A DNA stretch of 64,000 nt from an uncultured Planctomycetaceae bacterium (GTDB taxonomy: Bacteria > Planctomycetota > UBA8742 > UBA2392), in the NCBI GenBank assembly GCA_964652605.1, contig CAZZBH010000003.1, forward strand, positions 7,800 to 71,799, written 5' to 3'. The position numbers and the translations under genes are program-made. Under the pieces are notes generated by a model. That model did no database searches and was not told the DNA's origin. It saw only the letters and a list, made by a program, of their open reading frames with translations. Below, piece after piece: positions 10,022 through 42,992 of this stretch. Positions within the stretch are counted from its first letter, which is position 1, and every line of letters begins with the position of its first letter.

Positions 10022-10069
10022 GGAGTCTCCTGACGCGATGTTTAGCTGTCTGTTCGACGCGGCTCAACC

Positions 10070-18035: not shown

Positions 18036-18085
18036 ACCCGGAGAAGTGCAGGGGGTTCGGGACCCTGTCACGCCCGCGCGGACAC

Positions 18086-18118
18086 AGAGGCGTGTGCTTG
18101 GATCAAGCACAGACCTCT
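18086..18118 (+). promoter_or_regulatory. long imperfect hairpin in the rpsO-pnp leader
   Basis: agagg-cg-tgtgcttg / gat / caagcaca-ga-cctct: 8 bp plus 5 bp stems with a 2x2 internal loop. It sits in the 220-nt leader upstream of pnp ATG 18223. Confidence 0.4.
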
Positions 18119-18222
18119 CTGCCCGCCCGGGCAAATACCCGGCCCTTTGCATTCTTAAAGTGAGGCCCCTCCAGACAGGGAGAGCGGCCGGTAGCCCCGT
18201 TGCAGGGGCGGAAGGTCTTATC

Positions 18223-20451
18223 ATGGCAGTAACCAAGCTCAGTCAGAACAAGCACACAGTGACCGTCGAAATCGGCGGCCGCAACATTACCTTCGAAACC
18301 GGATGGCTTGCCAAGCAGGCCGCGGGCTCGGTGCTCGTGCGTGAAGAAAACAGCGCCGTGTTCGTGGCGGTGACTACAGCCGCGCCACGGCCGGGTATCG
18401 ACTTCTTTCCGCTTACCGTCGAGTACAAGGAAAAGACCAGCGCGGCTGGCAAGTTTCCCGGCGGGTTCTTTAAGCGCGAAGGCCGTCCGAGCACCAAAGA
18501 AGTGCTCACCATGCGCATGACAGACCGCCCGCTGCGTCCCACGTTCCGTGAAGGCTACCGGGATGAAGTGCAGATCAACGGCATGGCCATGTCCGCTGAC
18601 CCGAACCTTGACCCAGACATGCTGATGATCAACGGCGGCAGCGCGGCAGTGATGCTTGCAGGCTTGCCCTTTGATGGCCCCGTCGGTGCCGTACGAATGG
18701 GCCGGCGCGACGGCAAGTTCGTCGTCAACCCGGACTATGAAACCGTCGATCACGGTGACCTTAACATGGTCGTTGCCGGCACCGTCAACGGCATCTCGAT
18801 GGTGGAAGCCGGCGCGCACGAGCTGTCTGAGGACGATATCGTCGAAGCGCTCGATCTCGCGCACAAAGCCATCATCAAGCTGTGCAACGCCCAGCTCGAG
18901 CTGGTCAAGAAGGCCGGCATCAAGCCGATGGACTTCACACCGCCTGAAGCCCCGCCGGCCAAGCTGGTGGATGAAGTCAAGAAGAAGTACTTCGGCCAGT
19001 TTCTTGAAAAGGTCCGCATCACGGCCAAGCATGAGCGCAGCAACGCGCTCAGCGAGATCAAAAAGGCCGCAATTGCCGAGTACACGCCGGCTGACGCGTC
19101 TGACACGGCCGCTGTTGAGCGCGCAAAGCAGGTCGCGCAGATCGTTGGCGACTTCAAATACGAAGCTACCCGCCACATCATCCTGACCGAGAACAAGCGC
19201 ATCGACGGCCGCAACCTCGACGAGGTGCGCGACATCATCATTGAGATGTCGCCGTTTCCGCGCAATCACGGCAGCGTGACGTTCACCCGCGGCGAGACCC
19301 AGGCCTTCGTCACCTGCACACTGGGCACCGCGCAGGACACCCAGCTGGTGGACGGCTTGCGAGAATCCCGCGAGGAGCGCTTTCTTCTGCACTACAATTT
19401 CCCGCCGTTCTGCACCGGCGAGGCCAAGCCGATCCGCGGTGTCTCGCGCCGCGAGCTCGGCCACGGCGCGCTGGCAGAGCGCAGCATTCGCGTGATGCTT
19501 CCCAGCGAGACCGAGTTCCCGTACACCATCCGTATCGTCAGCGACATCCTGGAAAGTAACGGCAGTTCAAGCATGGCCAGTGTCTGCGGCGCCACCCTGG
19601 CGGCCTTCGACGCGGGCGTGCCGCTGAAGAAGCCCGTCGCGGGCGTGGCCATGGGCCTTGTCAGCGAAGGCGACAAGAACGCTGTGCTCACCGACATCCT
19701 CGGCGACGAAGACCACGTCGGTGACATGGACTTCAAGGTCTGTGGCACAGCCGACGGCATTACCGCCCTGCAGATGGACATCAAGGTCAAGAACCTGACC
19801 AGCGAGCTTATGCGCAAGGCGCTGGGCCAGGCGCGCGACGCGCGGCTCCACATCCTGGGCAAGATGGCGGAAGTGCTGCCGGCCCCGCGGCCAGAGATCA
19901 GCAAATGGGCGCCGCGCTTTGAGGTGATCAAGATCAGCAGTGAGTTGATCGGCTCAGTGATCGGCCCCGGCGGCAAGGTGATCCGCGGCATGCAGGACGA
20001 GTTCAAGACCACCATCACCGTCGAAGAGGACGGCACCATCAAGATCTTCGGCGAGGACGGCGTGAAGGTGCTCGCGAACAAAGAGCGCATCCGCATGATG
20101 ACCGAAGTGCCCGAGGTAGGCCAGCGCTTCACGGGCAAGGTGGGCAGCATGCGCGAGTTTGGCGCCTTCATCGAGTTCAACGGCAAGGAAGCCCTGATCC
20201 ACGTAAGCGAGCTGAGCGACGGCTATGTCGAAAAGCCGGAAGACGTGGTGAAGGTAGGCGACGAGCTTGAGTTCGAGATCATCAACGTCGATCCCACCGG
20301 CAAGATCAAAGGCAGCCGCAAGGCGGTAATCCTCAAGGACCGCGGCGAAGAATACTCGGCGCCAAAGCCGCGAACCGGCGGGCGCGACCGGGGCGGCCGA
20401 CCCGGAGGCCGCGACAGAGGCCCAAGACGCGAACGCTCCCCCCGCGGGTAG
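18223..20451 (+). CDS. pnp: polyribonucleotide nucleotidyltransferase (PNPase) with Arg/Gly-rich C-terminal tail
   Basis: Start at MAVTKLSQNKHTVTVEIGGRNITFETG (ATG 18223). Two RNase PH domains, then KH (GPGGKVIRGMQ) and S1 (GKVGSMREFGAFIEF) domains. Tail is GGRDRGGRPGGRDRGPRRERSPRG. Confidence 0.95.
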   Translation: MAVTKLSQNKHTVTVEIGGRNITFETGWLAKQAAGSVLVREENSAVFVAVTTAAPRPGIDFFPLTVEYKEKTSAAGKFPGGFFKREGRPSTKEVLTMRMTDRPLRPTFREGYRDEVQINGMAMSADPNLDPDMLMINGGSAAVMLAGLPFDGPVGAVRMGRRDGKFVVNPDYETVDHGDLNMVVAGTVNGISMVEAGAHELSEDDIVEALDLAHKAIIKLCNAQLELVKKAGIKPMDFTPPEAPPAKLVDEVKKKYFGQFLEKVRITAKHERSNALSEIKKAAIAEYTPADASDTAAVERAKQVAQIVGDFKYEATRHIILTENKRIDGRNLDEVRDIIIEMSPFPRNHGSVTFTRGETQAFVTCTLGTAQDTQLVDGLRESREERFLLHYNFPPFCTGEAKPIRGVSRRELGHGALAERSIRVMLPSETEFPYTIRIVSDILESNGSSSMASVCGATLAAFDAGVPLKKPVAGVAMGLVSEGDKNAVLTDILGDEDHVGDMDFKVCGTADGITALQMDIKVKNLTSELMRKALGQARDARLHILGKMAEVLPAPRPEISKWAPRFEVIKISSELIGSVIGPGGKVIRGMQDEFKTTITVEEDGTIKIFGEDGVKVLANKERIRMMTEVPEVGQRFTGKVGSMREFGAFIEFNGKEALIHVSELSDGYVEKPEDVVKVGDELEFEIINVDPTGKIKGSRKAVILKDRGEEYSAPKPRTGGRDRGGRPGGRDRGPRRERSPRG

Positions 20452-20508: not shown

Positions 20509-20550
20509 GAAAACATCGAAGGAGCCAACGCTCCTTCGATGTTTTCTTTT
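20509..20550 (+). terminator. rho-independent terminator of pnp
   Basis: Perfect 17-bp stem gaaaacatcgaaggagc / caac / gctccttcgatgttttc, followed by tttt. Confidence 0.85.
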
Positions 20551-20712
20551 GGCTGCGCTGAGCCGGTGCTGGACACACTCCCCCGACATGACCGAATGGC
20601 GGCGTGTCAGCAACTTTCGCAGCGTGTGACTGAAATGTGACACAAGTATGGGCGGGCGATGACATTCACGGAATAGATTGCCTTTCGGTAATTGCTAACG
20701 CGAGAGCGGGCC

Positions 20713-21624
20713 ATGGCGTTCACTAATGCCAATCTGTTGATGAATCACCCGACCGCGCGGTGGTTGATTGAGAAAGATCCGACCATCCTGCAGATTGCCC
20801 GCGTCATGCCATTCCTCGGCATTGACGGGGATTCGATCAGGTACGCGCGCCGCACCACCGAATTGACCAACGCCGCGATTGTCAACGACGGCGCGGCGGC
20901 AATCGACAATTCCGGCGCGGCCGAGGACATCGAATTCGGATTGAACGAGTTCATCTCGACCTACAAGATCAAGGTCGCCGACCTGGACCGCTACGACAGG
21001 TCGGACGCGGCCCAATACGCCCTGGCGCTGCGCGCTGACTTGTACGGCTACTTCGCATGGCTGGACACTGTCCTGCCCAGCCTCGGTATCCAGACGAATT
21101 TGAGCAGCGCGCCACTGACGCTCGACACGATGGACGCCGCCTATCACGAGGTCCGCGCCAATGACGGCCGTCCGACGATTATCATGACTTCTACGCGCAT
21201 TCTTCTCTGGTACAACAAACTGTGCCGCGCCACGAACTACGAGCCGCCGATGGTGCCATGGCAGTGGTATGATCCGGCGGTGGGGCAGATGGTGTCTGGC
21301 TTCGCGCCGGCGTTCAACGGAACGCCGATCTTGATCAACGACAAACTGGCAAGCGGGAGTTCCGAAACCGCCGAGGATCAGCGCATCTACTTCATGGTAC
21401 TCGGCGACGACGGCAAAGCCGGCCCCACACGCGGCGTGACAGGCATCGTGCCGGAGAGGCTGAAGGGCACCATGTTCGTGAAACGGACGACCATGGGCGA
21501 TTGGTCAAGTGGGGTGGAGGAGCCGAACACCATCGCAACCACATGGGTAAGCTGGCCAGTCGGGATAGCGGTTGGCGCGGAGCGGGCACTAAGCGTCCTG
21601 ACCAACTTCAGCGCGCCGGAATAG
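20713..21624 (+). CDS. HK97-fold major-capsid / encapsulin-like shell protein (orphan)
   Basis: 303 aa from ATG 20713. Segment order resembles HK97-type capsids: SIRYARRTTELTNAAIVNDGAAAIDNSG...ISTYKIKVADLDR (compare HK97 gp5 ALEYVREEVFTNNADVVAEKALKPES, recalled from memory), TIIMTSTRILLWYNKL, FNGTPILINDKL (compare MWGLPVVPTKA), RIYFMVLGDD. No HMM was run. Confidence 0.45.
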   Translation: MAFTNANLLMNHPTARWLIEKDPTILQIARVMPFLGIDGDSIRYARRTTELTNAAIVNDGAAAIDNSGAAEDIEFGLNEFISTYKIKVADLDRYDRSDAAQYALALRADLYGYFAWLDTVLPSLGIQTNLSSAPLTLDTMDAAYHEVRANDGRPTIIMTSTRILLWYNKLCRATNYEPPMVPWQWYDPAVGQMVSGFAPAFNGTPILINDKLASGSSETAEDQRIYFMVLGDDGKAGPTRGVTGIVPERLKGTMFVKRTTMGDWSSGVEEPNTIATTWVSWPVGIAVGAERALSVLTNFSAPE

Positions 21625-21739: not shown

Positions 21740-21952
21740 ATGGCCTGCGGATGCGGAGGACAGAAAATCGTAGTACCGCAAAGCACAGCCGCCAACGGGC
21801 CGCCGCTGGACTTTTCCACTATGCCCCGGGTCAGCCAATCAAAGGCCGACCCGGCAGTGGCGGCAACCAACAACGCGCGCGCGAAAACAGGCGCTCGCCG
21901 GCCTTGCACGTACCTCGCAAACACCTGGGCGCCCATCCCCGGCGCGTGTTGA
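21740..21952 (+). CDS. small Cys-bearing protein (70 aa), unknown
   Basis: AAGGAG SD upstream. Sequence MACGCGG...RRPCTYLANTWAPIPGAC has four Cys, at the extreme N- and C-termini. An alternative overlapping frame exists (21751..21969), so the call is tentative. Confidence 0.4.
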   Translation: MACGCGGQKIVVPQSTAANGPPLDFSTMPRVSQSKADPAVAATNNARAKTGARRPCTYLANTWAPIPGAC

Positions 21953-21972: not shown

Positions 21973-22587
21973 ATGGTCGCAGGCTATCCCGGAACTCCAG
22001 TACCAGCGTACACCCACCCCGGCGCGTGGTGCGGTGTGCTGGCCGGCGATCCGTGCCGCGTCGTCTGCTATGCGGGCGAACGGGGTGAGTCTGCTCCGGC
22101 GGGAACCAAGTGGGTGTTTGGCGCGACCCCGGGCTATCACACCCTCGGCCCACCCGACAACTTTGCGCAATTGGTGGGTTCTTTTCCCTGCCCTCCGCAG
22201 TGCTGTGGAGTAGCGGGAGGCGGTCAACCGCCCTCCGGACCGCCGGTGGATGAGCCCGTTGTTCCGGAGGAAGGCGAGGACATCCCGACCAGCGATTATC
22301 CCGTGGACGACCCGGTACAAGGTCCAGGGCCTGGCCCATTGCCGCCGGGGCCGATCCCGCTGCCCGACCCGTTTCCGGAGCCTGTGCCGCCTCAGGGTGG
22401 CGGCGAGTATTCGGACTTTCCGTTCGCCAGCCTCGACCCGTGGGACTGGCCGGGCGGAAGCGGGCACGGGTCGCCAGGCGGACAGGAACCCATGCCAGCA
22501 AGCGGCGCGGGCGCGGTCTTTCTGCCGGACGTAACACCCACGGACACAGACCGGCTTGGCGAAGGCGCGCTTTCTCCACAAGGGTAA
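21973..22587 (+). CDS. Cys-cluster N-domain plus proline/acidic-rich disordered protein (204 aa)
   Basis: GAGGA lies 8 nt upstream of the ATG. N-half has WCGVLAGDPCRVVCYAG...FPCPPQCCG. C-half is PPSGPPVDEPVVPEEGEDIPTSDYPVDDPVQGPGPGPLPPGPIPLPDPFPEPVPPQ. Confidence 0.45.
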   Translation: MVAGYPGTPVPAYTHPGAWCGVLAGDPCRVVCYAGERGESAPAGTKWVFGATPGYHTLGPPDNFAQLVGSFPCPPQCCGVAGGGQPPSGPPVDEPVVPEEGEDIPTSDYPVDDPVQGPGPGPLPPGPIPLPDPFPEPVPPQGGGEYSDFPFASLDPWDWPGGSGHGSPGGQEPMPASGAGAVFLPDVTPTDTDRLGEGALSPQG

Positions 22588-22597
22588 CGGAACCGCA

Positions 22598-24229
22598 ATG
22601 GCGAACCCGAACTGCCAATGCCAACTGATCGTCTGGGGTCCGGCAGCCGACCTGAAGTTTGAGCCCGACATCGATCCCGGAGAGCCCCAGAAGCTGGTTC
22701 GCGCGTCGTTCCGCGAAATCTTTGTAGCCGTTGGTGGCGCACAGCAGTACAACGGCAGAATCACGTTGGTTCCCAAAGGGAATCAACCCTCGCCACCAGG
22801 TCGGTGGTCACTCGAAACACTGAGCCGAATGGGTCAAGCCAAACCCCTCCTTGAGTTCCGCGAGATCGATGTCTTGCCAATGTTCACGGGGAAAGCCCCA
22901 GTAATGGGTCCTTGGAACACCACGCTGATCGGCCCGGAAACCACTTGCGATACCTACCATCGTTTCCAGTTCCGCGCACCCCAAAATATTGAGCCAAACC
23001 ATCCCGACGACCCCTTCGACTTCTACCGGATCCGCCTCAAATGGCCTCACGACGTACCTGATCGCGACGCGGCAATTTGCATCGTAAGCGCCAAAGTGCT
23101 GCGCATGCGCGAGTCGCTGCCCGATGAGGATGAAGGGATAATCATTGTAGGCGTTGAAGATGAGGATGAGCGACGGAAGCGCAGGACGACATTTCTAAAC
23201 ATGGTAAATCCCGGTGGGGGTCTCGACAACTTGCCAATCGCCGGATTCATCAACGATGGGTTCGATCCAGATTGTGCGTATCAGAAACTGAACCAAGCCC
23301 AGAAGGACAAGCTCCACGTGCTGCATAAGGCGGGCTGGAGATTCGCCACCAAGGACGACGGTTCTACTTCCTACGGTGGCCTTGATATGGGCGGCAGAGA
23401 TGTCAGCAACATTGACGTCGAGATTGAGGATTCAGATTGGTCCGAACGGATGGCAAGCGGTGAAGATGTTCAATGGATCGACGACCGGTGGGGCGTCGAT
23501 TTCGACAACAAGATGCTCTACATCGACGCCGGAGACTGCGATACGGGAGCTACCATAGTTGGCGAGTTGCTAAAGAAGATGAAGGAGCCTGTGGCGGGAG
23601 GCATTGATAAGACGGACTTTCATGCTGGTATGGACAAATGGGCGCAGTTTGGCGGCGGCTTGGGAGACATCCAAGACCTGCTAAGCGCTGGCATCGTTGA
23701 CCAGAGGCGATGGAGTCAAGTTGGCTATCTAAACAAGGAAAAAATTCTGGGTGCATTGCAGAGCGGCATAGTAGAAGTTGCGGGTAGTTTTGTGCTGACA
23801 GCAGGATTTGGTGCGCTCGGACAAGTATTGAAGCTTTTCAAAATTGCAAAGGCCATGCGATCAATGCGTGGAGTCCTTGCTGGCAAAAGACTTGATGCTG
23901 GGCTATTTGCTCAAAAGACGTTCTCGCCGACCTTTGCTGAAAAGGGACTGCTACAGGGTGCAAAATTTGACGATGTAGTCAAAGCACTAAAAAATGGTAA
24001 TCTGAAAGTGGATGCCATGGGAATAGATTACATTACTAAAGCTGGGAGAACTTATATTGTGAACACCAGGTCAGCCATGGCCCTGCAGCGAGCTGGTATT
24101 AGCAGATCACAATGGAAAGTGTTGAATCGAACCGGAATGAAAGTGTATGAGGACAGGGTTGCCGCGCAGCTAGCGAGGAATGGTATGAAATGGGGAGACG
24201 GGGTAGCGGACCCTGCAATGGCGAAATGA
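22598..24229 (+). CDS. large modular protein with low-GC C-terminal cassette (polymorphic-toxin-like architecture)
   Basis: 543 aa from ATG 22598, 11 nt after the preceding stop. Contains a hydrophobic segment GIVEVAGSFVLTAGFGALGQVL. The C-terminal ~120 aa (GIDYITKAGRTYIVNTRSAMALQRAGISRSQWKVLNRTG) is encoded by DNA of about 38% G+C (45/120 at 23941-24060). Confidence 0.5.
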   Translation: MANPNCQCQLIVWGPAADLKFEPDIDPGEPQKLVRASFREIFVAVGGAQQYNGRITLVPKGNQPSPPGRWSLETLSRMGQAKPLLEFREIDVLPMFTGKAPVMGPWNTTLIGPETTCDTYHRFQFRAPQNIEPNHPDDPFDFYRIRLKWPHDVPDRDAAICIVSAKVLRMRESLPDEDEGIIIVGVEDEDERRKRRTTFLNMVNPGGGLDNLPIAGFINDGFDPDCAYQKLNQAQKDKLHVLHKAGWRFATKDDGSTSYGGLDMGGRDVSNIDVEIEDSDWSERMASGEDVQWIDDRWGVDFDNKMLYIDAGDCDTGATIVGELLKKMKEPVAGGIDKTDFHAGMDKWAQFGGGLGDIQDLLSAGIVDQRRWSQVGYLNKEKILGALQSGIVEVAGSFVLTAGFGALGQVLKLFKIAKAMRSMRGVLAGKRLDAGLFAQKTFSPTFAEKGLLQGAKFDDVVKALKNGNLKVDAMGIDYITKAGRTYIVNTRSAMALQRAGISRSQWKVLNRTGMKVYEDRVAAQLARNGMKWGDGVADPAMAK

Positions 24230-24753
24230 TCTACGTACTCAATGGTCGAGAGCGATTGCTACTTCGGTCGGATGTGCCTCAACCGCTGGAGGGAGCACCA
24301 CACCCGCTATTTATTTCGGACGAGAGGAGATTATTTCTTGCATATTTTGCTGAGGACGACGATGTTTCAATTGTTAATGATGGAGCGGTGAGTGAACCGC
24401 GCCTTGTCGAGCCGAACTCTGTTGACGATTTGGTTGCTGTCTGCGTGATGGAGTACTACTCCATGCATGCGGCACCGTTCGACTGGGAATCCCTTGCTGG
24501 ACATCCGCTTAGGGACAAGGGCCTCAACGTTTGCAACGTTTTTGAACTTCAGGCATCGAGTTGGATTGCCGACGTCGCACCACCTGACAAGGGCCTGCTG
24601 AACCCCCGCAAGTTTGAGCGCTGGAAGCATGTGATGTTTGTGTTCAATGATTCTATAATCGATATTATCGGGAGGAATCTTAGCTTCCAGGCTTCTAGAA
24701 CTGGTTCTAGGGAGGCAGTATTGCGCGAATTCTTCCGGAGTCGCAGTAGTTGA
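24226..24753 (+). CDS. immunity-like protein, translationally coupled to the preceding gene
   Basis: ATGA start/stop overlap at 24226-24229. 175 aa with G+C about 43% (26/60 at 24301-24360). Motif block GHPLRDKGLNVCNVFELQASSWIADV...FERWKHVMFVFNDSIIDIIG. Confidence 0.5.
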   Translation: MIYVLNGRERLLLRSDVPQPLEGAPHPLFISDERRLFLAYFAEDDDVSIVNDGAVSEPRLVEPNSVDDLVAVCVMEYYSMHAAPFDWESLAGHPLRDKGLNVCNVFELQASSWIADVAPPDKGLLNPRKFERWKHVMFVFNDSIIDIIGRNLSFQASRTGSREAVLREFFRSRSS

Positions 24754-24793: not shown

Positions 24794-25366
24794 GTGGTAG
24801 ATGCCTTTGGAGATTGTCCGGGCGGCACTTCTGCGGGCGTAGCCGCTGGCGGATTCGGTGGTTTCGGTTGCAACGGAAACGGAGGGCGCGGCGGGGACGC
24901 GACGGCAAGCGCCGCGCCGGAGATGACTGAGTCGATAGATCCGAAGGACTTTCCTGTCGAGTATTTGACCAGCAAGTTTGCCTTCGGCGGGGGCGGTGGC
25001 TACGGCATCGTCAAGGACACAAGTGCGCCGGATGGGCAGGGGGGTACGGGCGGCGACGCGATCATCCGCTTTGGTGCGCCCAGTACTACGCTGGATACTC
25101 GACACCGGCGCGCGATTGGAGGGTATGGAGGATTCGGCACGAACGCGGGAGGAGTTGGCGGTAGCGCCATCTGGGAACCCGAGAAGTACGGCGTTGACGC
25201 TCGCGGGAACGGGGGGCCGGGTGGCCAGAACAGCGTTCCGGGTGCAGTGCCAACTCACGGCACGCGGACGCCAGCGGCAGCCGCAAACGCCACACTAGTC
25301 AACCCGCCTATCCCCCAAGGTGGCGTCCCGGCTTGGAACGTGAATCAAAAGTACAGGTGTAGCTGA
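24794..25366 (+). CDS. glycine-rich protein (possible fragment)
   Basis: GTG start with no SD. Motifs GGFGGFGCNGNGGRGGD, FGGGGGYG, GQGGTGGDAIIRFG, GGYGGFGTNAGGVGGSAI. This composition is reminiscent of glycine-rich phage tail-fibre-type proteins. Start is uncertain. Confidence 0.35.
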   Translation: MVDAFGDCPGGTSAGVAAGGFGGFGCNGNGGRGGDATASAAPEMTESIDPKDFPVEYLTSKFAFGGGGGYGIVKDTSAPDGQGGTGGDAIIRFGAPSTTLDTRHRRAIGGYGGFGTNAGGVGGSAIWEPEKYGVDARGNGGPGGQNSVPGAVPTHGTRTPAAAANATLVNPPIPQGGVPAWNVNQKYRCS

Positions 25367-26877
25367 TGTTATCAAGGACGCGCATAGCACTTGTCCTGGC
25401 GGTGTTCATGATAAGTCTCGGTGTGGGAGGCGGCTTACTAATTAGACACAGATCGGTCCATGACTCCAATCAACCGAAGTCACTTCCACTGCGACTTTCA
25501 CAAGGGTCTTCAAGCAACGGCGAGGGCGACATTCAGTCGTCCGGGTCGCGCAGCAATGCAAGTAGTGAGGCTGACGCAGCGGCAATGCCGCCTCTGACCA
25601 ACTACCTCAGAATCAAATGCTTTCCGGAGCATGCGACGCGATCCGGCTTTTCAGTAGCACTAGCAGACGACCTGACGGTGACCGCGTCTGACGGCACCAG
25701 CAACTTGCGTTTATCGCAGCTTTTCGAGGCACCCGTTGCGTTGGTTGTGAAGGACCCACTTCCTGAACGAGTGGCGTTTCAATTGTGGCACGACATGGTT
25801 GACGAAGTGGTCTATTCCGGGCAGGCTGCCGCGCGAGAGGAGGGACTGTGCCGGTATTGGGATATTGTGATTCCTGCGGTCGCGGCAAGTATTACGATTG
25901 ATTTACCGGACGTTGAGGGGACAGTAGAAATAGGCTTTTATGGTTCTCCGAAATGGCGCGACGGCAACTACCCTTTTGGCGGCGAGATTGCATGCAGAGT
26001 GGAGAGGTGTACTACTATGACCGCTTGGTTGTTGCCGTGGACATACTGGTTAGGTGGCAACGACCTCGACGTCAAATGGCCGGACCCACCCTCTGACAGG
26101 CCGTCATACCTAGAAACGCAGTTTGAGTTCGATTCTGACTCAGTCGACTTGCGATTCGGCAGGTACGTGAGAATAGGGCTCACCATAACGCGGGTTGAAA
26201 CGTGGCGGCCAATCAACACGCTTGGGAGGAGAGTGACCGCTGCGTATGTGCGCGATGGTATTGGGCACGGCTCGGTTATCCCCTATGAGGACGATGGTCC
26301 CCATGAGATTAGCCTTGAGCAGGTTAGTCGGCCAAGCGATAATGAACGGTACGAGGGTAGGCGAGTATTGTATCACCAATCAGGTGATTGGGCAGTCACT
26401 GTGTCGGGAGATGTGTGGTTTCGTGAGCCAGAGTCGTGGCATACACCCTCCATCGCTGTACTTGAATTTGAAGATGGCGGGTTTTCCATCGTTCGCCGAA
26501 CGGAGCCGCTTGGCGAGGATGTCACGGAGCTGGTTGTTCCCGGAACGCCGGGGGATGGCGGCACCGTGGAGTTTAAAGTCTCCGCGCCGGATCACGCGGA
26601 GGGCCTGTCGCTGGAGTGCCATGTCCGGCTCCCGCAATGGGAGGCCGACGAGATTTTCTATTACATCAAAGATGTGGCGTTGCCGTCCAATGGCACTTCT
26701 ACAATCCGGATACCCTACGGGGCTGAGCTATGGATTACGGAGTTCAACTTCTCAAAGGAAGCCAACCTTGAGGTTGTTGAACCGAAGAGAGACGCCCGCA
26801 GGCGAAGTTCACGTTGGAGACAACCTTTTCGAGCGGGCGACACCGCAACCATCAAACTTGCAGATCGGAACGGCTAA
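25366..26877 (+). CDS. N-terminally membrane-anchored beta-rich protein, unknown
   Basis: TGATG stop/start overlap at 25364-25368. TM anchor IALVLAVFMISLGVGGGLLI. 503 aa with G+C about 48% in the sampled line 25921-25980. Confidence 0.55.
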   Translation: MLSRTRIALVLAVFMISLGVGGGLLIRHRSVHDSNQPKSLPLRLSQGSSSNGEGDIQSSGSRSNASSEADAAAMPPLTNYLRIKCFPEHATRSGFSVALADDLTVTASDGTSNLRLSQLFEAPVALVVKDPLPERVAFQLWHDMVDEVVYSGQAAAREEGLCRYWDIVIPAVAASITIDLPDVEGTVEIGFYGSPKWRDGNYPFGGEIACRVERCTTMTAWLLPWTYWLGGNDLDVKWPDPPSDRPSYLETQFEFDSDSVDLRFGRYVRIGLTITRVETWRPINTLGRRVTAAYVRDGIGHGSVIPYEDDGPHEISLEQVSRPSDNERYEGRRVLYHQSGDWAVTVSGDVWFREPESWHTPSIAVLEFEDGGFSIVRRTEPLGEDVTELVVPGTPGDGGTVEFKVSAPDHAEGLSLECHVRLPQWEADEIFYYIKDVALPSNGTSTIRIPYGAELWITEFNFSKEANLEVVEPKRDARRRSSRWRQPFRAGDTATIKLADRNG

Positions 26878-26959: not shown

Positions 26960-28774
26960 TCAGCGGCGGAGGTCTTTGAGTTCGAGCTCTACTTCGGGGT
27001 GGCCTCGCCAGGTGCTGATTCTGGGCGTGAAGGCGGCCCTTAGTTTGCTGCCGCGCTCGAACTCTCCTATGCGCGCCCCCATCCCGAACCCGATGGCCTT
27101 GAAGCTGCCGCTGCCGCTGCGCTTCAGCATCATGCTCAGGTGCCCCGTCCCGCGACCTACCACGCGCGGCGCCGAGGCGACCTCAAGATCCTCGGTTGAA
27201 AATACCGGCTCCGGGTTGCCCTGCCCGAACGGCTCCAGCGCTTCCAACCAGCGCACGCCCGCCACATCCAGCTCATGCAGATCGATGCGCGCATCGATGT
27301 CCAGCGTCGGCGTGGCATAGTCGGCTTGCAGCACGTGCTTATCGGCAACTTCATTTACGGCGCGGCGCAACAGCCCCATGTTTTCGCGGCTGATTTCAAG
27401 CCCCGCAGCCTGCTCGTGGCCGCCGAAGCGGCTCATCAGGCCGGAGCAATCGCTCAGCGCGTTGTACAGGTGAAAGCCCGGGATGCTGCGGCCCGAGCCG
27501 CGGCCCGTGCCGCCGTTGAGCGCAACCAGAACAGCCGGCTTGTTGAATCGCCGCGAGATTCGCGCGGCGACAATTCCGACGACTCCGGGGTGAAACTCGT
27601 CGTGCGAAAGCACCAGTACACGGTCGCGCGAATACGTTTCGTCGGCGAGCACGATTTCTTCGGCGATGCCGGTCAGTCTGCGGTCCACTGTCTGGCGCTG
27701 CTTGTTCAGCTCGTCGGCTTCGGCGGCGAGTTTGATGGCTTCGCCGTAACTGCGGGCGGTGAGCAGCTCGACGGCCAGGCTTTCGCGGCCCATGCGCCCG
27801 CCGGCGTTGAGGCGCGGCGCGATCTTGAATGCAATATCGGTGCCGGTTGGAACGCCCGTGAGACCGCTGGTTTCCATCAGCGCGCGAATGCCGGGGTTGG
27901 GGCTGTCGGGCATGCAGCGCAAGCCGCTGCGGGTCAACACGCGGTTGTCGCCGACCAGCGGCACGACGTCAGCCACGCTGGCAAGCGCGACCAGGCTTTG
28001 CGCGCCGGCGAGGAAGTCCTTGAACGCAGCGTCGAGGTCGCGCCCGGTTGACACGCGCTGCAGAAGCGCCCAAGCCAGCTTGAACGCCACGCCGGCGCCG
28101 CAAAGGTCGCGGAACTTCACTTCTTCGCCCTTGCAGTGCGGGTTGAGAATGGCATGCGCCGGCGGCAGCGTTTCGCCGACGGTGTGGTGGTCAGTGATGA
28201 TGGCGTCGATGCCCAGGTCGCGTGCAAGCTCAACCTCGCGGTTGGCCGTAGTGCCGTTGTCGCAGGTGATCAGCAGCTTCACGCCCCGCGCGGCGGCTTT
28301 GCGCACTGCGTTTTCACTCAAGCCGTAGCCGTCTTCAGCGCGCGAGGGGATGCAGGCATCGACTTCGCGGCCAAGCAGACGAAAGAAATTGACCAGCAGC
28401 GCGGTGCTTGCGCTGCCATCGACGTCGTAGTCGCCCTGAATTGCGATGCGCTCGCCGCGATCGAGTGCGGCGCGGATGCGCTCAACGGCCCGTTCCATGT
28501 CACGAAATGTGAAGGGGTCTTCAAGGTGGGCGCTGCTGGGGTTCAAGTAGCGCGAGGCTGTGTCCGGGTCGCGGATGCCGCGGTTGACCAGCGCACGGGC
28601 CACAAACTCCGGCACTCGCAGGCCCGCCGCCAGCTCCTGCACCAGCGAAGCGCGCTGCGAAGCGACACACCAGGCAGAATCAATGGGCGATCTTGCGCTG
28701 TCGGTTGCAGACTGCGGATTGCTCACCGCTACCCCCTGCCTGGCATTAGTACACCACAGTGCCGACAGGGGCAA
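26960..28774 (-). CDS. recJ: single-stranded-DNA-specific exonuclease RecJ
   Basis: DHH motifs: IAIQGDYDVDGSASTALL, LLITCDNG, DAIITDHH. DHHA1 GGHEQAAG. The N-terminal start is uncertain; only one Met lies in the ORF 5' region. Confidence 0.9.
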   Translation of the reverse strand: MPLSALWCTNARQGVAVSNPQSATDSARSPIDSAWCVASQRASLVQELAAGLRVPEFVARALVNRGIRDPDTASRYLNPSSAHLEDPFTFRDMERAVERIRAALDRGERIAIQGDYDVDGSASTALLVNFFRLLGREVDACIPSRAEDGYGLSENAVRKAAARGVKLLITCDNGTTANREVELARDLGIDAIITDHHTVGETLPPAHAILNPHCKGEEVKFRDLCGAGVAFKLAWALLQRVSTGRDLDAAFKDFLAGAQSLVALASVADVVPLVGDNRVLTRSGLRCMPDSPNPGIRALMETSGLTGVPTGTDIAFKIAPRLNAGGRMGRESLAVELLTARSYGEAIKLAAEADELNKQRQTVDRRLTGIAEEIVLADETYSRDRVLVLSHDEFHPGVVGIVAARISRRFNKPAVLVALNGGTGRGSGRSIPGFHLYNALSDCSGLMSRFGGHEQAAGLEISRENMGLLRRAVNEVADKHVLQADYATPTLDIDARIDLHELDVAGVRWLEALEPFGQGNPEPVFSTEDLEVASAPRVVGRGTGHLSMMLKRSGSGSFKAIGFGMGARIGEFERGSKLRAAFTPRISTWRGHPEVELELKDLRR

Positions 28775-28990
28775 GCGTGCACGCTACGTAACTTGTTTTA
28801 TCAACAGTGTTTCCGCAAAATATACGGACTTGACTGCCACGCCCTTGCTACGACAATCACACGACCACTTGTGGAGCGATTGGTGATCCAGCGTGTGCGA
28901 TATGTGCAATCATTTGACGCAACGTATTGCAAGAGGTACGGTTAGAAACCGCGGAGCCCGCGGCGCTAAAGGCTTTTGACGGAGGCACCG

Positions 28991-31900
28991 ATGAGGCAAA
29001 TGCTCGCCGCCGTAGTGGCGACAATTCTGGCGGGTTCAGTCTCGGCGCAGACAACCTTCGTCTCTACACCCAATCAGCCGATCCCCGACAATTCGCCCAA
29101 CGGCGTCACGAACACGATTGTCATTCCGCCCACGTCCGACCGCATCCGGTCATTGCGTGTCGGAGTGCGCATCCAGCACACATACACCGCAGACCTTGAT
29201 ATCTGGCTGATCCCGCCCGGCGTGACCTGGAGCGGGCCGTACACCACAATCAATAACGGGCCGGTGGTGGAGGCGCCCCCCGGCGTGATCCAGCTTTCCA
29301 CCAACAACGGCTCCTCTGGCGACAATTACGGCAGCACGACCAACTCGTCGGTTTACGCGAACTTCAGTTCACCCAGCGACACGACGTGGCCGGCTGCGCA
29401 ATCGGTGACTAACGGGAATGCCCCGTTCACGTCGCAGTCGCAGTGGATTCCGGAATGGCGGGGCGCGTGGGACACGATGTACGGGCGCGACCCTTCCGGC
29501 GCGTGGACGCTGGCTGTCGGTGACGGATGGGCGCTCGATACCGGCACCCTGCTGGCATGGCGGATCGAGTACATGCCCGTCACACCGCCGTCACTGATCG
29601 TGCGCCAGGGAGAGGCCAACCGCCCCGGCACGCCGGCTGTTCCGGGCCAGGCCGGCCAGGTGCTGGGCCAGGCCCGCATTGAGGCAGTCGGCAACAATGC
29701 CATTTCGGGCGTGACGGTGACGGCGCAGAACGGCGTGAACATCGGTACGAGCCTTTCGCAACTGGCGCTGTATGCGGACACAAACGAAGACGGGCTGCTT
29801 GATCCGGGTGACACCTTTCTTCTGGCAGCGTCCTTGTCGGGCAGCACCGCGACGTTCAACTTCGGGGCGTCGGTGCCGCTGACATCGGGCACGACCGCGG
29901 CGTTGCTTCTCGTTGGCGACGTGCGGCCATCGCCGGCTGCTACGGGCTTGACGCTGCAGATCACGAATGCCGGCGCAATCGGCGGTGCGACGGGGGTGTT
30001 CGGGGTTTTTCCGGTGGTGTTTGGATTTCATCCGTTTGCGAGCTTGCGCACCTACACCAGCGTGCCGCCTGGCGGCAGGCAAATTCCGAACAACCAGGCG
30101 TATGGCGTGCGGGACTCGATTCAGATCCCGCCATTGAACGAGCGCGCGGCAAGCATCCGTGTCGGCGTGCGAATCCAGCACGACCGGCTTCAGGACATTG
30201 ACATGTATCTGCTGCCGCCGGGCGTGGACTGGAGCGGGCCCTATACCGGCTCCGGACCAGCCGGAGTGATTGAACTGAGCTCCGACAATGGCGGCAACGG
30301 CGACAACTACGGGACGGGCAACGGGCCGTTCGTGTTCACGTTATTCTGCAGCCAGACAGACCCGAATCTTGCCTGGCGCGCCAACCGCAACATCATCACT
30401 TCAAATCAGAATGAAGCACCGTTCACGCACCGTCCCGCCTACTACCCCGAAGACCAGAGCGATTTCAACGCGCTGTACAATGCGGATCCTTCGGGCCAGT
30501 GGACACTGGTTGTTCTGGATGATGCAGGCCAGAACAACGGCGGCGAGTTGATCGGTTGGCAGATCGAGTATCTGGCTCACCCGATTGCCACGCTGGCTGG
30601 CAACGCGGACCTTGGATCGGCGACCGTAGGATTCCCCAGCGGGGTGTCACCGCGCACTTTCACGATCGGCAACGACGGGGACTATCCGCTGGCGGTATCG
30701 GGCATCACGTTTGTCGGCGCGCACGCGGCGGATTTCAGCCGCAACGCGATATCGTTTCCGGTGAACGTCGCGCCCGGTGGCAGCTTCAACTTTAACGTGA
30801 CCTTCACGCCGACGGCTGATGGCGTGCGGCATACAACGCTTCGCGTGCTGTCGAACGAGAACGGCATCCCGGGCACCGCGGACGACATAACGATCTGGGG
30901 CTTTGGCGAAATGCCGGACCAGTTGCTGATCAATCCAGGGTTCAACAATCATCCGGGAGAGAGTTTCAAACACGCCGAAACCAACGCGGTCTTCGGGCAG
31001 TACGAGTTCGCCACTGGGGCCTCAGCGGTGACGGTGAACAGCGTGACGATCCGCGAGGAGTCAAACCTTGCGTTGGCCGCCAACCTGTCCAACCTGCGCC
31101 TGTATCACGACACCGACAACGACGGCGAGCACGGCCCGGGCGACGTGTTACTGGGCATCGCGGCGCTGGGGCCTACAGACGGGTTCGCTACGTTCAATGT
31201 GGGCCGCGTGATCGGTGCGCAGACCTTTGAGAATTGGATTGTTGTCGGCGACGTGCTTGCCACACCCGTCAACCAGCTGCTTGCGCTTGAGATTCGCGCC
31301 GCGACGGACGTAGTTGCCTCGCACACTCCGGCTGTGCTGTTCCCGGTATCAACGGGCCCGCGCACGCTGGATTCACAACGCGTGTTTACCAACACGCATC
31401 CCGGTGGCCTCTTGATCCCGAACAGCAGCACTGTCGGCGTGACCAGCAGCATCGTGATCCCGCCGACGACTGAGACAATCGCAGCGTTTCGCGTCGGTGT
31501 GCGCATCGATCACCCCGTGGATGAAGACATCGAGATGTGGCTGATCCCCCCCGGCGTGACGTGGAACGGACCATACTCCGGCAGCGGGCCAGCCGGGGTG
31601 ATCGAGCTGTCGAGCGACAACGGCGGCTCCGGCCAGGACTATGGCAGCGGCGCGTTTGACTTCGTGTATGCCAACTTCACGTCGGCGACTGACCAGGTTT
31701 TCACGCCGTCGGTGAACATTGCCGGGCAGGGCACCAGTGCCGCGCCGTTCACGAGCACGTACTACCGCCCCGAAGATCAAACCGACTTCAACGCGCGCTA
31801 TGGGCAAAGCCCGTCCGGCACCTGGACGCTGGCGGTGCGCGACGACGCCGGAAACCAGTTTACGACCGGCCGCCTGATTTCATGGCAGATCGAGTACAGG

Positions 31901-42903: not shown

Positions 42904-42992
42904 AACGCGCGCTGGCACAGTTGGCAAGGGGTTTGGCGGGCCCACCCGGGTGGCTTGCCGGCGCGACTTCAAGCCGCTGGCGGAATCACAGC

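What the first reader, a model, noticed from the sequence alone, without database searches (positions are those of the whole stretch)
20713..21624. Orphan HK97-fold shell gene without packaging machinery: candidate encapsulin-like compartment
The 303-aa protein shows the segment order and several strand motifs I associate with HK97-type capsid proteins (see the feature evidence). The stretch ARWLIE...SIRYARR and G-T-P-I-L-I-N-D-K-L...RIYFMVLGDD...GVTGI also reminds me of Family 2 encapsulin shells. That comparison is from memory only. No terminase, portal, protease/scaffold, tail or lysis gene is recognisable anywhere in the 64 kb. An HK97-fold protein standing alone next to non-phage genes is the genomic signature by which encapsulins were recognised. 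The genes that follow are not any of the known cargo classes (ferritin-like, DyP peroxidase, cysteine desulfurase, terpene cyclase). If it is a shell, the cargo would be new.
Basis: inference. Interest (0 to 1): 0.75.

Follow-up and report, generated by a model that had tools for sequence, protein, structure and literature searches.

The report
Stand-alone capsid-like shell gene cassette
A Planctomycetota chromosome carries a virus-capsid-type shell gene with no other virus genes; it belongs to a small undescribed family that sits in several copies per genome, each followed by fast-changing partner genes and usually preceded by a slippery on/off promoter tract, which suggests a new kind of bacterial protein compartment.

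Summary
ORF 20713-21624 (+) encodes a 303-aa protein with a true HK97 capsid fold: a PHROG major-head hit, weak tblastn hits to phage head proteins, and an AlphaFold model (pLDDT 81) whose seven best PDB matches are all Family 2 encapsulins. No terminase, portal, protease or tail gene was found in the 64 kb, which is ordinary chromosome (PNPase upstream, RecJ downstream).

The family is small, with 43 close clusters among 5.8 billion. It is almost entirely confined to Planctomycetota MAGs, is absent from IMG/VR viral contigs, and is under strong purifying selection (dN/dS about 0.1).

- **Copy number.** There are up to four copies on one chromosome.
- **Partner genes.** In most loci, the next gene encodes a protein that starts with a CxxC/CGCG motif and has long disordered linkers (window 21740-21952). 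Hypervariable genes with low GC3 follow.
- **Promoter tract.** 32 of 41 loci carry a homopolymer tract (A, C, G or T, 7-22 nt) in the promoter. Its length differs between otherwise identical sequences, so expression is probably phase-variable. The window's tract is degenerate (GGGCGGGCG).

The encapsulin-like reading is partly supported. The protein misses Pfam's Family 2 model, and neither shell assembly nor cargo loading is shown.

The parts
20509..20546 (+). Intrinsic terminator of the upstream PNPase gene (17-bp perfect stem followed by a T-run). It marks the left limit of the cassette and shows that the shell gene needs its own promoter.
   Evidence: (I6)
20602..20610 (+). Upstream motif GCGTGTCAG. 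It matches GTGTGTCAG with one mismatch and lies 111 nt before the ATG.
   Evidence: The same motif (at most 1 mismatch) lies at -260..-60 in 10 of 41 loci; about 0.6 would be expected from its density in the loci. It is aligned with L007/L008.
20625..20641 (+). Two TGTGAC boxes (20625-30 and 20636-41) just 5' of the tract position. They are -35-like or regulator-site-like elements, conserved in the G-tract subgroup.
   Evidence: sequence; alignments
20650..20658 (+). Degenerate homopolymer tract GGGCGGGCG, 63 nt before the ATG. At this position relatives carry G8-G22, or A, C or T runs. In the window it is interrupted, so this copy is probably fixed rather than switchable.
20674..20679 (+). 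-10-like box TAGATT. The family pattern is TAnnnT, 8-20 nt after the tract.
   Evidence: Inferred, not mapped; the sigma-70 consensus scan did not call it.
20713..21624 (+). Shell gene: a 303-aa stand-alone HK97-fold protein. It is the constant first gene of the cassette.
21740..21952 (+). Small 70-aa ORF, MACGCGGQK...CTYLANTWAPIPGAC. It carries the family's N-terminal Cys-pair signature and is the candidate adaptor or cargo-loading partner.
   Evidence: It is conserved with the same start motif and the same C-terminus in L008 (dN/dS 0.38). An ORF starting with a CxxC/CxC motif lies directly downstream in 25 of 41 loci.
21973..22587 (+). 204-aa Pro/Gly/acidic-rich, probably disordered protein. 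Its equivalent is fused to the next gene's homologue in locus L024.
   Evidence: dN/dS 0.24 vs L008. The frame call is less certain.
22556..24229 (+). 557-aa ORF (probable start ATG 22598, giving 543 aa). It has an N-terminal 'CQCQLIVWGP...YRIRLKWP' beta-rich domain and a unique C-terminal half. GC3 is 0.58. It is the hypervariable partner and putative cargo.
   Evidence: The domain is repeated in the L024 1120-aa protein and present in L007/L008. There is no homologue beyond itself in 5.8 billion proteins, no family or PDB hit, and the AF2 model is uninformative.
24190..24753 (+). 187-aa ORF overlapping the end of the previous gene. GC3 is 0.53. Function unknown.
24794..25366 (+). 190-aa Gly-rich ORF. 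The coding call is uncertain.
25366..26877 (+). 503-aa protein with an N-terminal transmembrane or signal-anchor segment. GC3 is 0.59. It is the last gene before the convergent RecJ gene (26960-28774, minus strand) and marks the right limit of the cassette.

Best explanation
The gene encodes a stand-alone HK97-fold shell protein. It belongs to a small, previously undescribed family, almost entirely confined to Planctomycetota MAGs, whose fold is closest to Family 2 encapsulins.

It is the conserved first gene of a short cassette made of a shell gene plus variable partner genes.

**Most likely mechanism.** The protein self-assembles in the cytoplasm into a closed icosahedral compartment. That compartment takes up the co-transcribed partner proteins, which would dock through a short N-terminal Cys-pair motif (CxxC or CGCG) and short motifs embedded in long disordered linkers. 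Family 2 encapsulins load cargo in this way, through disordered terminal domains.

**Genome organisation.** A genome holds up to four such cassettes, each with a different partner set. In most of them transcription is gated by a hypermutable homopolymer tract in or next to the promoter spacer, so sub-populations switch individual cassettes on and off. In the window's copy the tract has decayed to GGGCGGGCG, so this copy is probably fixed in one state.

**Shown:** the fold, the orphan context, purifying selection, multi-copy status, the conserved partner signature, the tracts and their length variation, and the compositional break after the shell gene.

**Inferred:** assembly into a shell, loading of the partners, the on/off effect of tract length, and what the cargo does.
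For: **Fold**
- PHROG_212, E=3.8e-8.
- AF2 model with pLDDT 81.
- Foldseek PDB ranks 1-7 are Family 2A/2B encapsulins (8t6r, 8wol, 8won, 6x8m, 9bix, 9bje, 9bhu; E 1e-15 to 3e-12; TM 0.59-0.68). The best phage capsid is at 9e-11. The best BFVD viral hit is 7.5e-13, with viral TM scores of 0.41-0.65.
- There is a faint sequence link to PF19307 SrpI-like in 4/39 close and 7/53 distant members.

**Non-viral context**
- No phage genes in the window.
- The listed genes around homologues on contigs of up to 4.1 Mb include no portal or terminase.
- Zero relatives in IMG/VR.

**Function is maintained**
- dN/dS is 0.10-0.12.
- There are 11 invariant columns across 39 sequences that go down to 28% identity.

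**Partner gene**
- An ORF starting with M-x(3-25)-C-x(1,2)-C lies directly downstream in 25/41 loci. The two Cys are the only invariant columns in 17 aligned N-termini.
- The L001-type partners add an 'NFTLAETDAxxVLP' motif inside acidic/Pro-rich linkers and a Cys near the C-terminus.
- Partner type tracks shell subfamily.
- Family 2 cargo likewise has disordered termini carrying short motifs (PMC8346489).

**Constant shell, variable partner**
- GC3 is 0.79±0.04 for the shell genes and 0.60±0.05 for the downstream genes.
- DNA homology between the window and L007/L008 is strong only over the shell gene.

**Multi-copy**
- There are four copies on one 4.12-Mb contig, JADJRK010000001.

**Phase variation**
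- 25 of the 41 homopolymers of 7 nt or more in 570 kb lie at -131..-41 of the shell ATG. In the enlarged set, 32/41 loci have such a tract.
- Such runs are otherwise avoided: 2 in the 64-kb window against 29 expected.
- Tract length differs while flanks stay the same: A7/A9, G8/G12/G15, G8/G9, T9/T13, C7/C8.
- Variation also appears between samples of one locus: G9 in 8 samples and G10 in 2; T10 in 6 and T11 in 1; two contigs break inside the tract.
- One promoter reads TTGACA-ACC-T10-GCGGGG-TACCAT.
Against: - No experiment and no multimer model shows that the protein forms a closed shell.
- It does not reach Pfam's Family 2 threshold, and a family profile finds no encapsulin among PDB sequences.
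- The structural preference for encapsulins over phage capsids is modest: TM 0.64-0.68 against up to 0.65. E-values from different libraries are not comparable.
- The partners have no recognisable enzyme domain.
- Several cassette genes encode signal-peptide LRR, MORN or TM proteins, which a cytoplasmic shell could not enclose.
- Seven loci carry a fibre-like protein related to a podovirus structural-module gene. That points to a phage-particle heritage rather than a metabolic compartment.
- Multi-copy status, phase variation and hypervariable low-GC cassettes are hallmarks of conflict or surface systems, not of known encapsulins.
- Tract differences of ±1 nt between samples could partly be sequencing or assembly error.
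- The window's own copy lacks an intact tract.
- All data come from MAGs and metagenomes.
Confidence: 0.5

Rival explanations
1. Domesticated virus-like particle that acts outside the cell. The shell, together with the fibre-like, LRR and other binding proteins of the cassette, forms a released particle that displays or delivers the hypervariable partner proteins to other cells. This would resemble a bacteriocin or an effector-delivery particle. Each cassette would be a different specificity variant, switched by phase variation.
For: - The cassettes behave like contingency loci: multi-copy, with hypermutable promoter tracts.
- The downstream genes are hypervariable and low in GC3, with almost no homologues.
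- Seven loci contain a fibre-like protein whose C-terminal part is 38% identical to the last structural-module gene of a podovirus.
- LRR proteins with signal peptides recur as the second or third gene.
- One partner ends in an HELAH metalloprotease-like motif.
Against: - No lysis, secretion or tail gene is conserved in the cassettes.
- The shell protein and the Cys-motif partner lack signal peptides.
- Fibre-like genes occur in only a minority of loci and not in the window.
- No toxin or immunity family was detected.
Confidence: 0.2
2. Anti-phage or conflict system built on a captured capsid protein. The HK97-fold protein could act as a decoy, a capsid-assembly poison or a sensor partner against infecting tailed phages. 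The variable partners would be effectors, and phase variation would limit the cost.
For: - Phase-variable, multi-copy, rapidly diversifying cassettes with foreign composition are typical of defence loci.
- By sequence, the nearest named relatives are true phage head proteins.
Against: - No PADLOC model matches any of the ten cassette proteins tested.
- No nuclease, NTPase, TIR, SIR2 or other effector domain was found.
- The neighbours are housekeeping genes rather than defence islands.
- The full HK97 architecture is conserved under strong purifying selection. That fits a self-assembling shell better than a decoy.
Confidence: 0.12
3. Relic or cargo of a mobile element. The cassette would be the leftover structural module of a decayed prophage or satellite, or of a small integrative element, with no cellular function of its own.
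For: - The cassette sits at different chromosomal sites in related genomes.
- GC content dips to 0.53-0.58 over 23-27 kb.
- In L005 a 6.6-kb cassette is bracketed by a direct duplication of the 3' end of an arginase gene, 95% identical over 300 nt.
- Some copies are frameshifted or truncated: L022, L026, L030, L035.
Against: - dN/dS of about 0.1 and 11 invariant residues across deep divergence argue for a maintained function.
- The shell gene has host-like GC3 (0.80).
- No integrase, replicase, terminase or portal was found in the loci whose gene lists were examined, with one unrelated DDE transposase in L001.
- There are no relatives in viral contigs.
- There are no flanking repeats in the window.
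- The promoter architecture is conserved family-wide.
Confidence: 0.08
4. The HK97-fold protein does not form a closed shell. Instead it would form an open lattice, tube or scaffold, or work as a small oligomer that chaperones or organises the disordered Cys-motif partners.
For: - Nothing here tests closure.
- The very strongly conserved N-arm (residues 15-47) could serve a partner-binding role.
- Distant relatives occur as tandem pairs of two shell genes. This arrangement is also compatible with irregular tilings.
Against: - All HK97-fold elements needed for capsomer formation are present.
- The 50 best structural neighbours shown are all closed shells.
Confidence: 0.1

Closest known systems
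Family 2 encapsulins (2A: SrpI of Synechococcus elongatus, Mmp1 of mycobacteria, the Acinetobacter baumannii shell; 2B: Streptomyces shells); Pfam PF19307
   Same: - It is a stand-alone HK97-fold protein of about 300 aa in a non-viral chromosomal context.
- These shells are the best structural matches.
- It has an extended N-arm.
- The neighbouring gene products carry long disordered regions with short conserved motifs, as described for Family 2 cargo.
- Distant relatives occur as two tandem shell genes, as in Family 2B two-component shells.
   Different: - It falls below the PF19307 threshold, with 14-19% identity.
- It has no cysteine desulfurase, terpene cyclase, polyprenyl transferase or xylulose kinase neighbour, and no cNMP domain.
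- The partner has a Cys-pair N-terminus.
- There are several divergent copies per genome, a hypermutable promoter tract, and hypervariable partner genes of foreign composition.
- It is almost entirely confined to Planctomycetota MAGs.
HK97-type major capsid proteins of tailed phages (PHROG_212; PaMx28/PaMx74-like and Xanthomonas DoCa5 head proteins; Pfam SU10_MCP, GP7, Phage_capsid)
   Same: - The fold is the same, and these are the only named sequence relatives.
- Distant members of the wider superfamily hit these Pfam families.
   Different: - No portal, terminase, protease, scaffold or tail gene is nearby.
- It is absent from IMG/VR.
- It has host-like codon composition.
- It is the first gene of its own small operon.
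Tailless, portal-less 'mini' viral entities with encapsulin-like capsid proteins (Aguilar et al., bioRxiv 10.1101/2025.06.18.659913)
   Same: Both are HK97-fold proteins at the virus-encapsulin boundary, in elements of 5-12 kb without terminase, portal or tail genes.
   Different: Those elements are DTR-bounded, come from the human gut, and encode integrase, RepA or helicase, and regulators. The cassettes here have no replication or integration genes, are chromosomal, and are multi-copy in environmental Planctomycetota.
Promoter-tract phase-variable contingency loci (for example Neisseria porA/opc, Bordetella fim, Mycoplasma vlp; named from general knowledge)
   Same: A homopolymer tract lies between or beside the -35 and -10 elements, and its length varies between otherwise identical sequences.
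   Different: The gene under control is a capsid-fold shell, not a surface antigen or a restriction-modification gene. Any of the four bases can form the tract. The hosts are free-living Planctomycetota, for which a literature search found no report of phase variation. The window's copy has a degenerate tract.

Membership tests
Encapsulin (general definition: Andreas & Giessen 2021, PMC8346489) | HK97-fold shell protein | tested here: met
   AF2 model with pLDDT 81. Foldseek PDB gives 381 matches with E<=0.001; all 50 best shown are HK97-fold shells and the top 7 are encapsulins. PHROG_212 hit.
Encapsulin (general definition: Andreas & Giessen 2021, PMC8346489) | Not part of a phage or prophage (no terminase, portal, protease or tail genes nearby) | tested here: met
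   Window scans. Homologous loci. No relatives in IMG/VR.
Encapsulin (general definition: Andreas & Giessen 2021, PMC8346489) | Self-assembly into a closed icosahedral shell | not testable with these tools
   This needs expression plus EM, or at least multimer modelling. Only a monomer model was possible.
Encapsulin (general definition: Andreas & Giessen 2021, PMC8346489) | Dedicated cargo with a targeting peptide or domain encoded in the operon | tested here: inconclusive
   A conserved co-oriented partner has a Cys-pair N-terminus (25/41 loci), short motifs and disordered linkers. Binding to the shell was not tested, and no enzyme domain was recognised.
Family 2 encapsulin (Pfam PF19307 SrpI-like) | Sequence match to PF19307 above the gathering score | tested here: not met
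   The window protein has no Pfam hit even at E<=10. 4/39 family members hit weakly, best E 1.3e-4. The one bit score reported, for the distant relative P0101, is 21.3, below the 22.8 cutoff. A family profile finds no encapsulin in PDB sequences.
Family 2 encapsulin (Pfam PF19307 SrpI-like) | Closest structural neighbours are Family 2 shells | tested here: met
   Ranks 1-7 in Foldseek PDB, TM 0.59-0.68.
Family 2 encapsulin (Pfam PF19307 SrpI-like) | Operon with a cysteine desulfurase, terpene cyclase, polyprenyl transferase or xylulose kinase cargo | tested here: not met
   None of these domains was found in the window cassette or in the partner proteins scanned from other loci.
Tailed-phage major capsid protein within a (pro)phage | Linked morphogenetic module (portal, large terminase, maturation protease or scaffold) | tested here: not met
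Gene transfer agent or capsid-forming phage satellite (PICI/cf-PICI) | Head-tail-terminase cluster (GTA), or integrase plus replication plus small terminase/portal genes (satellites) | tested here: not met
   No such genes were found in the window or in the flanks of the homologous loci whose gene lists were examined.
Simple-sequence contingency (phase-variable) locus | Hypermutable repeat tract in the promoter or 5' coding region | tested here: met
   The family meets this: 32/41 loci, with extreme positional enrichment. The window's own copy does not: its tract is interrupted, GGGCGGGCG at 20650-20658.
Simple-sequence contingency (phase-variable) locus | Tract-length polymorphism between otherwise identical sequences | tested here: met
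   Controls without a tract are invariant.
Simple-sequence contingency (phase-variable) locus | Tract length switches expression on and off | not testable with these tools
   This needs reporter fusions or transcript mapping.
Known anti-phage defence systems (PADLOC-DB v2) | Match of any cassette protein to a defence-system model | tested here: not met
   0 hits for 10 cassette proteins.

The most novel reading that the evidence does not exclude
These cassettes are a new class of domesticated capsid. They would be phase-variable, multi-copy HK97 shells that package, display or deliver hypervariable effector proteins as a population-level bet-hedging or conflict device. That would make them a capsid-based counterpart of polymorphic-toxin or tailocin systems rather than a metabolic organelle. 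It would also be the first phase-variation system described in Planctomycetota.
Probability: 0.22. Interest if true: 0.92.

Novelty: new variant of a known kind. Interest (0 to 1): 0.74.

Why it matters
Encapsulins are the only well-established case of cells re-using the HK97 capsid fold. Four families are known, each tied to a few enzyme cargos.

This adds a fifth, sequence-distinct lineage that sits between phage head proteins and Family 2 shells. Its organisation is unlike any of the four. A conserved shell gene is followed by rapidly diversifying, compositionally foreign partners. There are several cassettes per chromosome, and a slippage-prone promoter tract probably switches each one on and off.

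If the shell forms and loads the partners, three things follow. The known cargo space and loading logic widen, through the N-terminal Cys pair and the short motifs in disordered linkers. A natural 'constant shell, swappable cargo' system becomes available for engineering. And there would be a living intermediate for the debate on how capsids and encapsulins interconvert.

The promoter tracts also matter independently. Phase variation is hardly documented in free-living environmental bacteria, and searches of the paper library found no report of it for Planctomycetota or for encapsulins.

Tried and rejected
**Searches on the cassette partners that found nothing**
- Pfam, NCBIfam, PHROGs, PADLOC and PDB-sequence searches of the downstream genes gave no hits.
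- A word-indexed homology search of the 543-aa partner found only itself.
- The same search for the L012 Cys-motif partner found 4 proteins, too few for a useful alignment.
- An AF2 single-sequence model of the 543-aa partner had pLDDT 34 and was unusable, so no fold search was run on it.

**Tests on the shell protein that were negative**
- A family-profile search of PDB sequences found no encapsulin or capsid. The link is structural only.

**Rejected: the cassette is a bounded mobile element in the window**
- No flanking direct or inverted repeats of note.
- No tRNA.
- No integrase.

**Rejected: the 204-aa and 557-aa ORFs are one recently frameshifted gene**
- The split is conserved in L007 and L008 at 78% DNA identity. 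The two are fused in L024.

**Rejected: the T-tracts are terminators of upstream genes**
- No GC hairpin precedes them.
- A, C and G tracts occupy the same position.

**Other checks**
- An apparent variation in downstream gene calls between samples of the P0011 locus was examined. The DNA is identical; only the gene caller differs.
- The P0032 locus, which has no tract, is identical in 10 samples and serves as a negative control.
- The T8 tract of the P0022 locus is the same in three MAGs.
- The NCBI contig of the window could not be retrieved with annotation. Only a 1.56-kb identical Logan contig was available.
- P0004 is not on record.
- The Rfam scan of the window found nothing.
Full report
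**1. The observation**

The ORF exists as described. The ORF listing gives 20692..21624 on the + strand. All 38 aligned homologues begin at the equivalent methionine.

The coding signal is strong. GC3 is 0.80-0.85 and GC2 is 0.40-0.47, like the surrounding housekeeping genes.

The gene has its own transcription unit. The upstream PNPase gene (18046-20451) ends in a perfect 17-bp hairpin plus T-run at 20509-20546.

**2. The fold**

Pfam and NCBIfam find nothing. PHROGs gives phrog_212 'major head protein' at E=3.8e-8. tblastn against 50,697 phage records gives 23-30% identity to the annotated major head proteins of Pseudomonas phages PaMx28/PaMx74 and Xanthomonas phage DoCa5.

An AlphaFold2 model built on a 39-sequence alignment has pLDDT 81 and pTM 0.77. 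It shows the full HK97 layout: an N-arm, an 18-residue E-loop hairpin, a 28-residue spine helix, and A- and P-domains.

Foldseek against the PDB returns 381 hits with E<=0.001. The first seven are all Family 2 encapsulin shells: A. baumannii 2A, Mmp1, SrpI and three Streptomyces 2B shells. Their E-values run from 1e-15 to 3e-12 and their TM scores from 0.59 to 0.68. Phage capsids begin at 9e-11. The best predicted viral structures score 7.5e-13, with TM scores of 0.41-0.65.

It is not borne out by sequence:
- The window protein misses PF19307.
- Only 4 of 39 relatives give sub-threshold hits.
- A family profile finds no encapsulin in PDB sequences.

**3. The orphan context**

The window is ordinary chromosome. 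Its genes include Ser/Thr kinase, enolase, PNPase, RecJ, a 2614-aa Kelch-repeat protein, PriA, ABC1 kinase, DUF58, a polysaccharide ABC ATPase, glycosyltransferases, AHSA1 and HEAT-repeat proteins. No terminase, portal, protease, scaffold, tail or lysis gene was found. There are no tRNAs and no Rfam matches.

**4. The family**

- Among 5.8 billion clustered proteins there are only 43 hits. Where a source names them, all but one come from Planctomycetota MAGs, many on contigs of 0.1-0.9 Mb.
- A profile search of 1.84 billion representatives finds 283 relatives, 50 of them below 1e-30.
- The distant fringe hits a mix of phage capsid Pfams (SU10_MCP, Phage_capsid, GP7) and SrpI-like. The family therefore lies between phage head proteins and Family 2 shells.
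- No relative is found in 2.9 million IMG/VR viral contigs.
- A scan of one genome per species gives 29 loci. The metagenome scan adds 8.
- The genes listed around homologues never include phage morphogenesis genes.
- The window gene compared with its two closest relatives (82-84% aa identity, both from one MAG) gives dN/dS of 0.10. The gene is maintained, not decaying.

**5. Multi-copy**

The same genome often has several divergent copies. Four lie on one 4.12-Mb contig at 0.16, 1.75, 2.52 and 3.03 Mb. Two other MAGs have four copies, one has three, and the window's nearest relative has two. The window itself has one copy.

DNA similarity between the window and its two closest relatives is strong only over the shell gene. 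It starts 3-11 nt before the ATG, and the flanks are unrelated apart from a few short conserved promoter motifs.

**6. The partner genes**

In most loci two to five co-oriented genes follow the shell gene.

In 25 of 41 non-redundant loci the next ORF begins with a short polar leader and a Cys pair, either CxxC or CGCG. In an alignment of 17 such N-termini the two cysteines are the only invariant columns.

In the window this is the 70-aa ORF 21740-21952 (MACGCGGQK...PIPGAC). It is conserved from start motif to stop in L008, with dN/dS of 0.38.

In another subgroup the motif heads a 300-500-aa protein. That protein also carries an 'NFTLAETDAxxVLP' motif within acidic/Pro-rich linkers and a Cys near its C-terminus. 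Partner type follows shell subfamily. This resembles the disordered, motif-bearing cargo-loading regions described for Family 2 cargo (PMC8346489).

Later genes are very variable:
- signal-peptide LRR proteins;
- a MORN protein and a PDZ protein;
- a fibre-like protein in seven loci, whose C-terminus is 38% identical to the last structural-module gene of a podovirus;
- large proteins built from a 'CxCxL.VW...YRIR..W' beta-rich domain.

The last group includes the window's 557-aa ORF 22556-24229. The same domain occurs three times in a 1120-aa protein of L024, which ends in an HELAH motif.

None of these proteins has a family, defence-system or PDB hit. They have almost no homologues.

There is a systematic compositional break. 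GC3 is 0.79±0.04 for the shell genes and 0.60±0.05 for the first large downstream ORF. The GC dip at 23-27 kb in the window reflects the same break.

**7. The promoter tracts**

Reading the upstream regions showed a homopolymer run of any base (A7-12, C7-9, G8-22, T8-14) 40-130 nt before nearly every shell gene. A TAnnnT box follows it.

- In the first 32 loci, 25 of all 41 runs of 7 nt or more in 570 kb lie in that 90-nt interval. In the enlarged set, 32 of 41 loci have one.
- Such runs are otherwise avoided. There are 2 in the 64-kb window against about 29 expected from base composition.
- Tract length changes while the flanks stay the same: A7 vs A9 (flanks 100% identical), G8/G12/G15, G8/G9/interrupted, T9/T13, C7/C8.
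- Across independent samples of one locus the tract is G9 in eight and G10 in two. In another locus it is T10 in six and T11 in one, and two contigs break inside the tract. Everything else is identical.
- Loci or regions without tracts are invariant.
- One promoter reads TTGACA-ACC-T10-GCGGGG-TACCAT, a tract inside the -35/-10 spacer. In the G-tract subgroup the run lies between TGTGAC-type boxes, at or just upstream of the -35 position.

This is the classical design of slipped-strand, promoter-level phase variation. That classification rests on my own knowledge of Neisseria, Bordetella and Mycoplasma loci. The effect on expression is inferred.

In the window the equivalent position, 20650-20658, reads GGGCGGGCG. 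L008 has G10 and L007 has GGGGTGGG. The window's copy is therefore probably locked. A further motif, GTGTGTCAG, lies about 110 nt upstream in the window (20602) and in 10 of 41 loci.

**8. Interpretation**

The best-supported reading (about 0.5) is an encapsulin-like compartment of a new lineage. A conserved shell gene would load the co-transcribed Cys-motif and disordered-linker partners. It is organised as several cassettes per genome, each under a hypermutable promoter.

Several features are untypical of metabolic encapsulins:
- phase variation;
- multi-copy status;
- hypervariable partners of foreign composition;
- secreted LRR proteins and phage-fibre-related proteins.

These keep alive a more novel reading: a capsid-derived particle used in conflict or delivery. 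That covers a delivery particle (about 0.2) and a defence system (about 0.1).

A dead prophage relic is unlikely, given the purifying selection, the host-like codon usage of the shell gene, the conserved promoter design, and the absence of integration or replication genes.

Membership in Family 2 is not claimed, because the defining Pfam model is not met. The claim that it works like an encapsulin rests on the fold, the genomic context and the partner architecture. It needs EM and co-purification to be shown.

**9. Limits**

- All sequences are from MAGs or metagenomes.
- The structural margin between encapsulins and phage capsids is small.
- E-values from different libraries are not comparable.
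- Promoter elements are inferred from conservation, not mapped. The generic sigma-70 scan did not call the window promoter.
- Tract differences of ±1 nt between samples could include sequencing error. The larger between-genome differences cannot be explained that way.
- The function of every partner protein remains unknown, and the single attempt to model one failed.

Noticed in passing
L005:9300-9730 and L005:15932-16360: In the P0042 locus a 6.6-kb cassette (shell gene plus 3 genes) is bracketed by a direct duplication of the 3' end of an arginase gene. The duplicated 142 aa are 99% identical, and the DNA is 95% identical over 300 nt. This looks like a Campbell-type or site-specific insertion scar, yet no integrase is present.
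   Followed up: partly
L057:3768-5660 and L056:2-1470: More distant relatives (27% identity to the window protein) occur as two tandem shell genes of equal length that are 73% identical to each other. This recalls the two-component Family 2B shells. A charged, Pro-rich protein follows them.
   Followed up: partly
window 1-64000: Homopolymer runs are strongly avoided in this genome. There are only 2 runs of 7 nt or more (31546 C7, 43263 T7), against about 29 expected from base composition.
   Followed up: yes
window 19959-19976 and 22339-22356: A perfect 18-nt inverted repeat (GATCGGCCCCGGCGGCAA / TTGCCGCCGGGGCCGATC) brackets the shell gene. One arm lies in the PNPase KH-domain coding region (IGPGGK), the other in the Pro-rich 204-aa ORF (PPGPI). 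It is probably a coincidence of Gly/Pro codons, because inversion would destroy pnp.
   Followed up: no
window 28976-36820: A giant 2614-aa ORF with many Kelch repeats, ASH/HYDIN-type Ig domains and proprotein-convertase P-domains lies just beyond RecJ.
   Followed up: no
window 24020-24034 and 23967-23995: The -10-region string of the shell promoter (GGAATAGATTGCCTT, 20670-20684) recurs at 24020-24034 (GGAATAGATTACATT). A sigma-70-like match (TTGACG-17-AAAAAT) lies next to it at 23967-23995, upstream of the 187-aa ORF. This may be an internal promoter or may be chance.
   Followed up: no
L022, L026, L030, L035 (shell genes at about 10001-10950): Some paralogous shell genes are truncated or split by a frameshift. 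Individual cassettes therefore do decay while others in the same genome stay intact.
   Followed up: no
L007:1650-3468: In one of the two closest relatives, about 1.8 kb is inserted between the shell gene and the partner genes. It holds a 144-aa ORF with the 'YLPEVVPPGPPGIG' motif, which is also found inside the large partner proteins of L024 and more weakly in the window's 543-aa protein, plus a 250-aa ORF on the other strand.
   Followed up: no
window 38442-46377: A polysaccharide-synthesis cluster: a Wzt-type ABC ATPase followed by GT1/GT2/GT4/GT9 glycosyltransferases, some matching the 'GT4-conflict' Pfam model.
   Followed up: no
window 18046-18225: The longest PNPase ORF begins about 60 codons before the conserved start (MAVTKLSQ...). 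The true start is probably the internal ATG.
   Followed up: no
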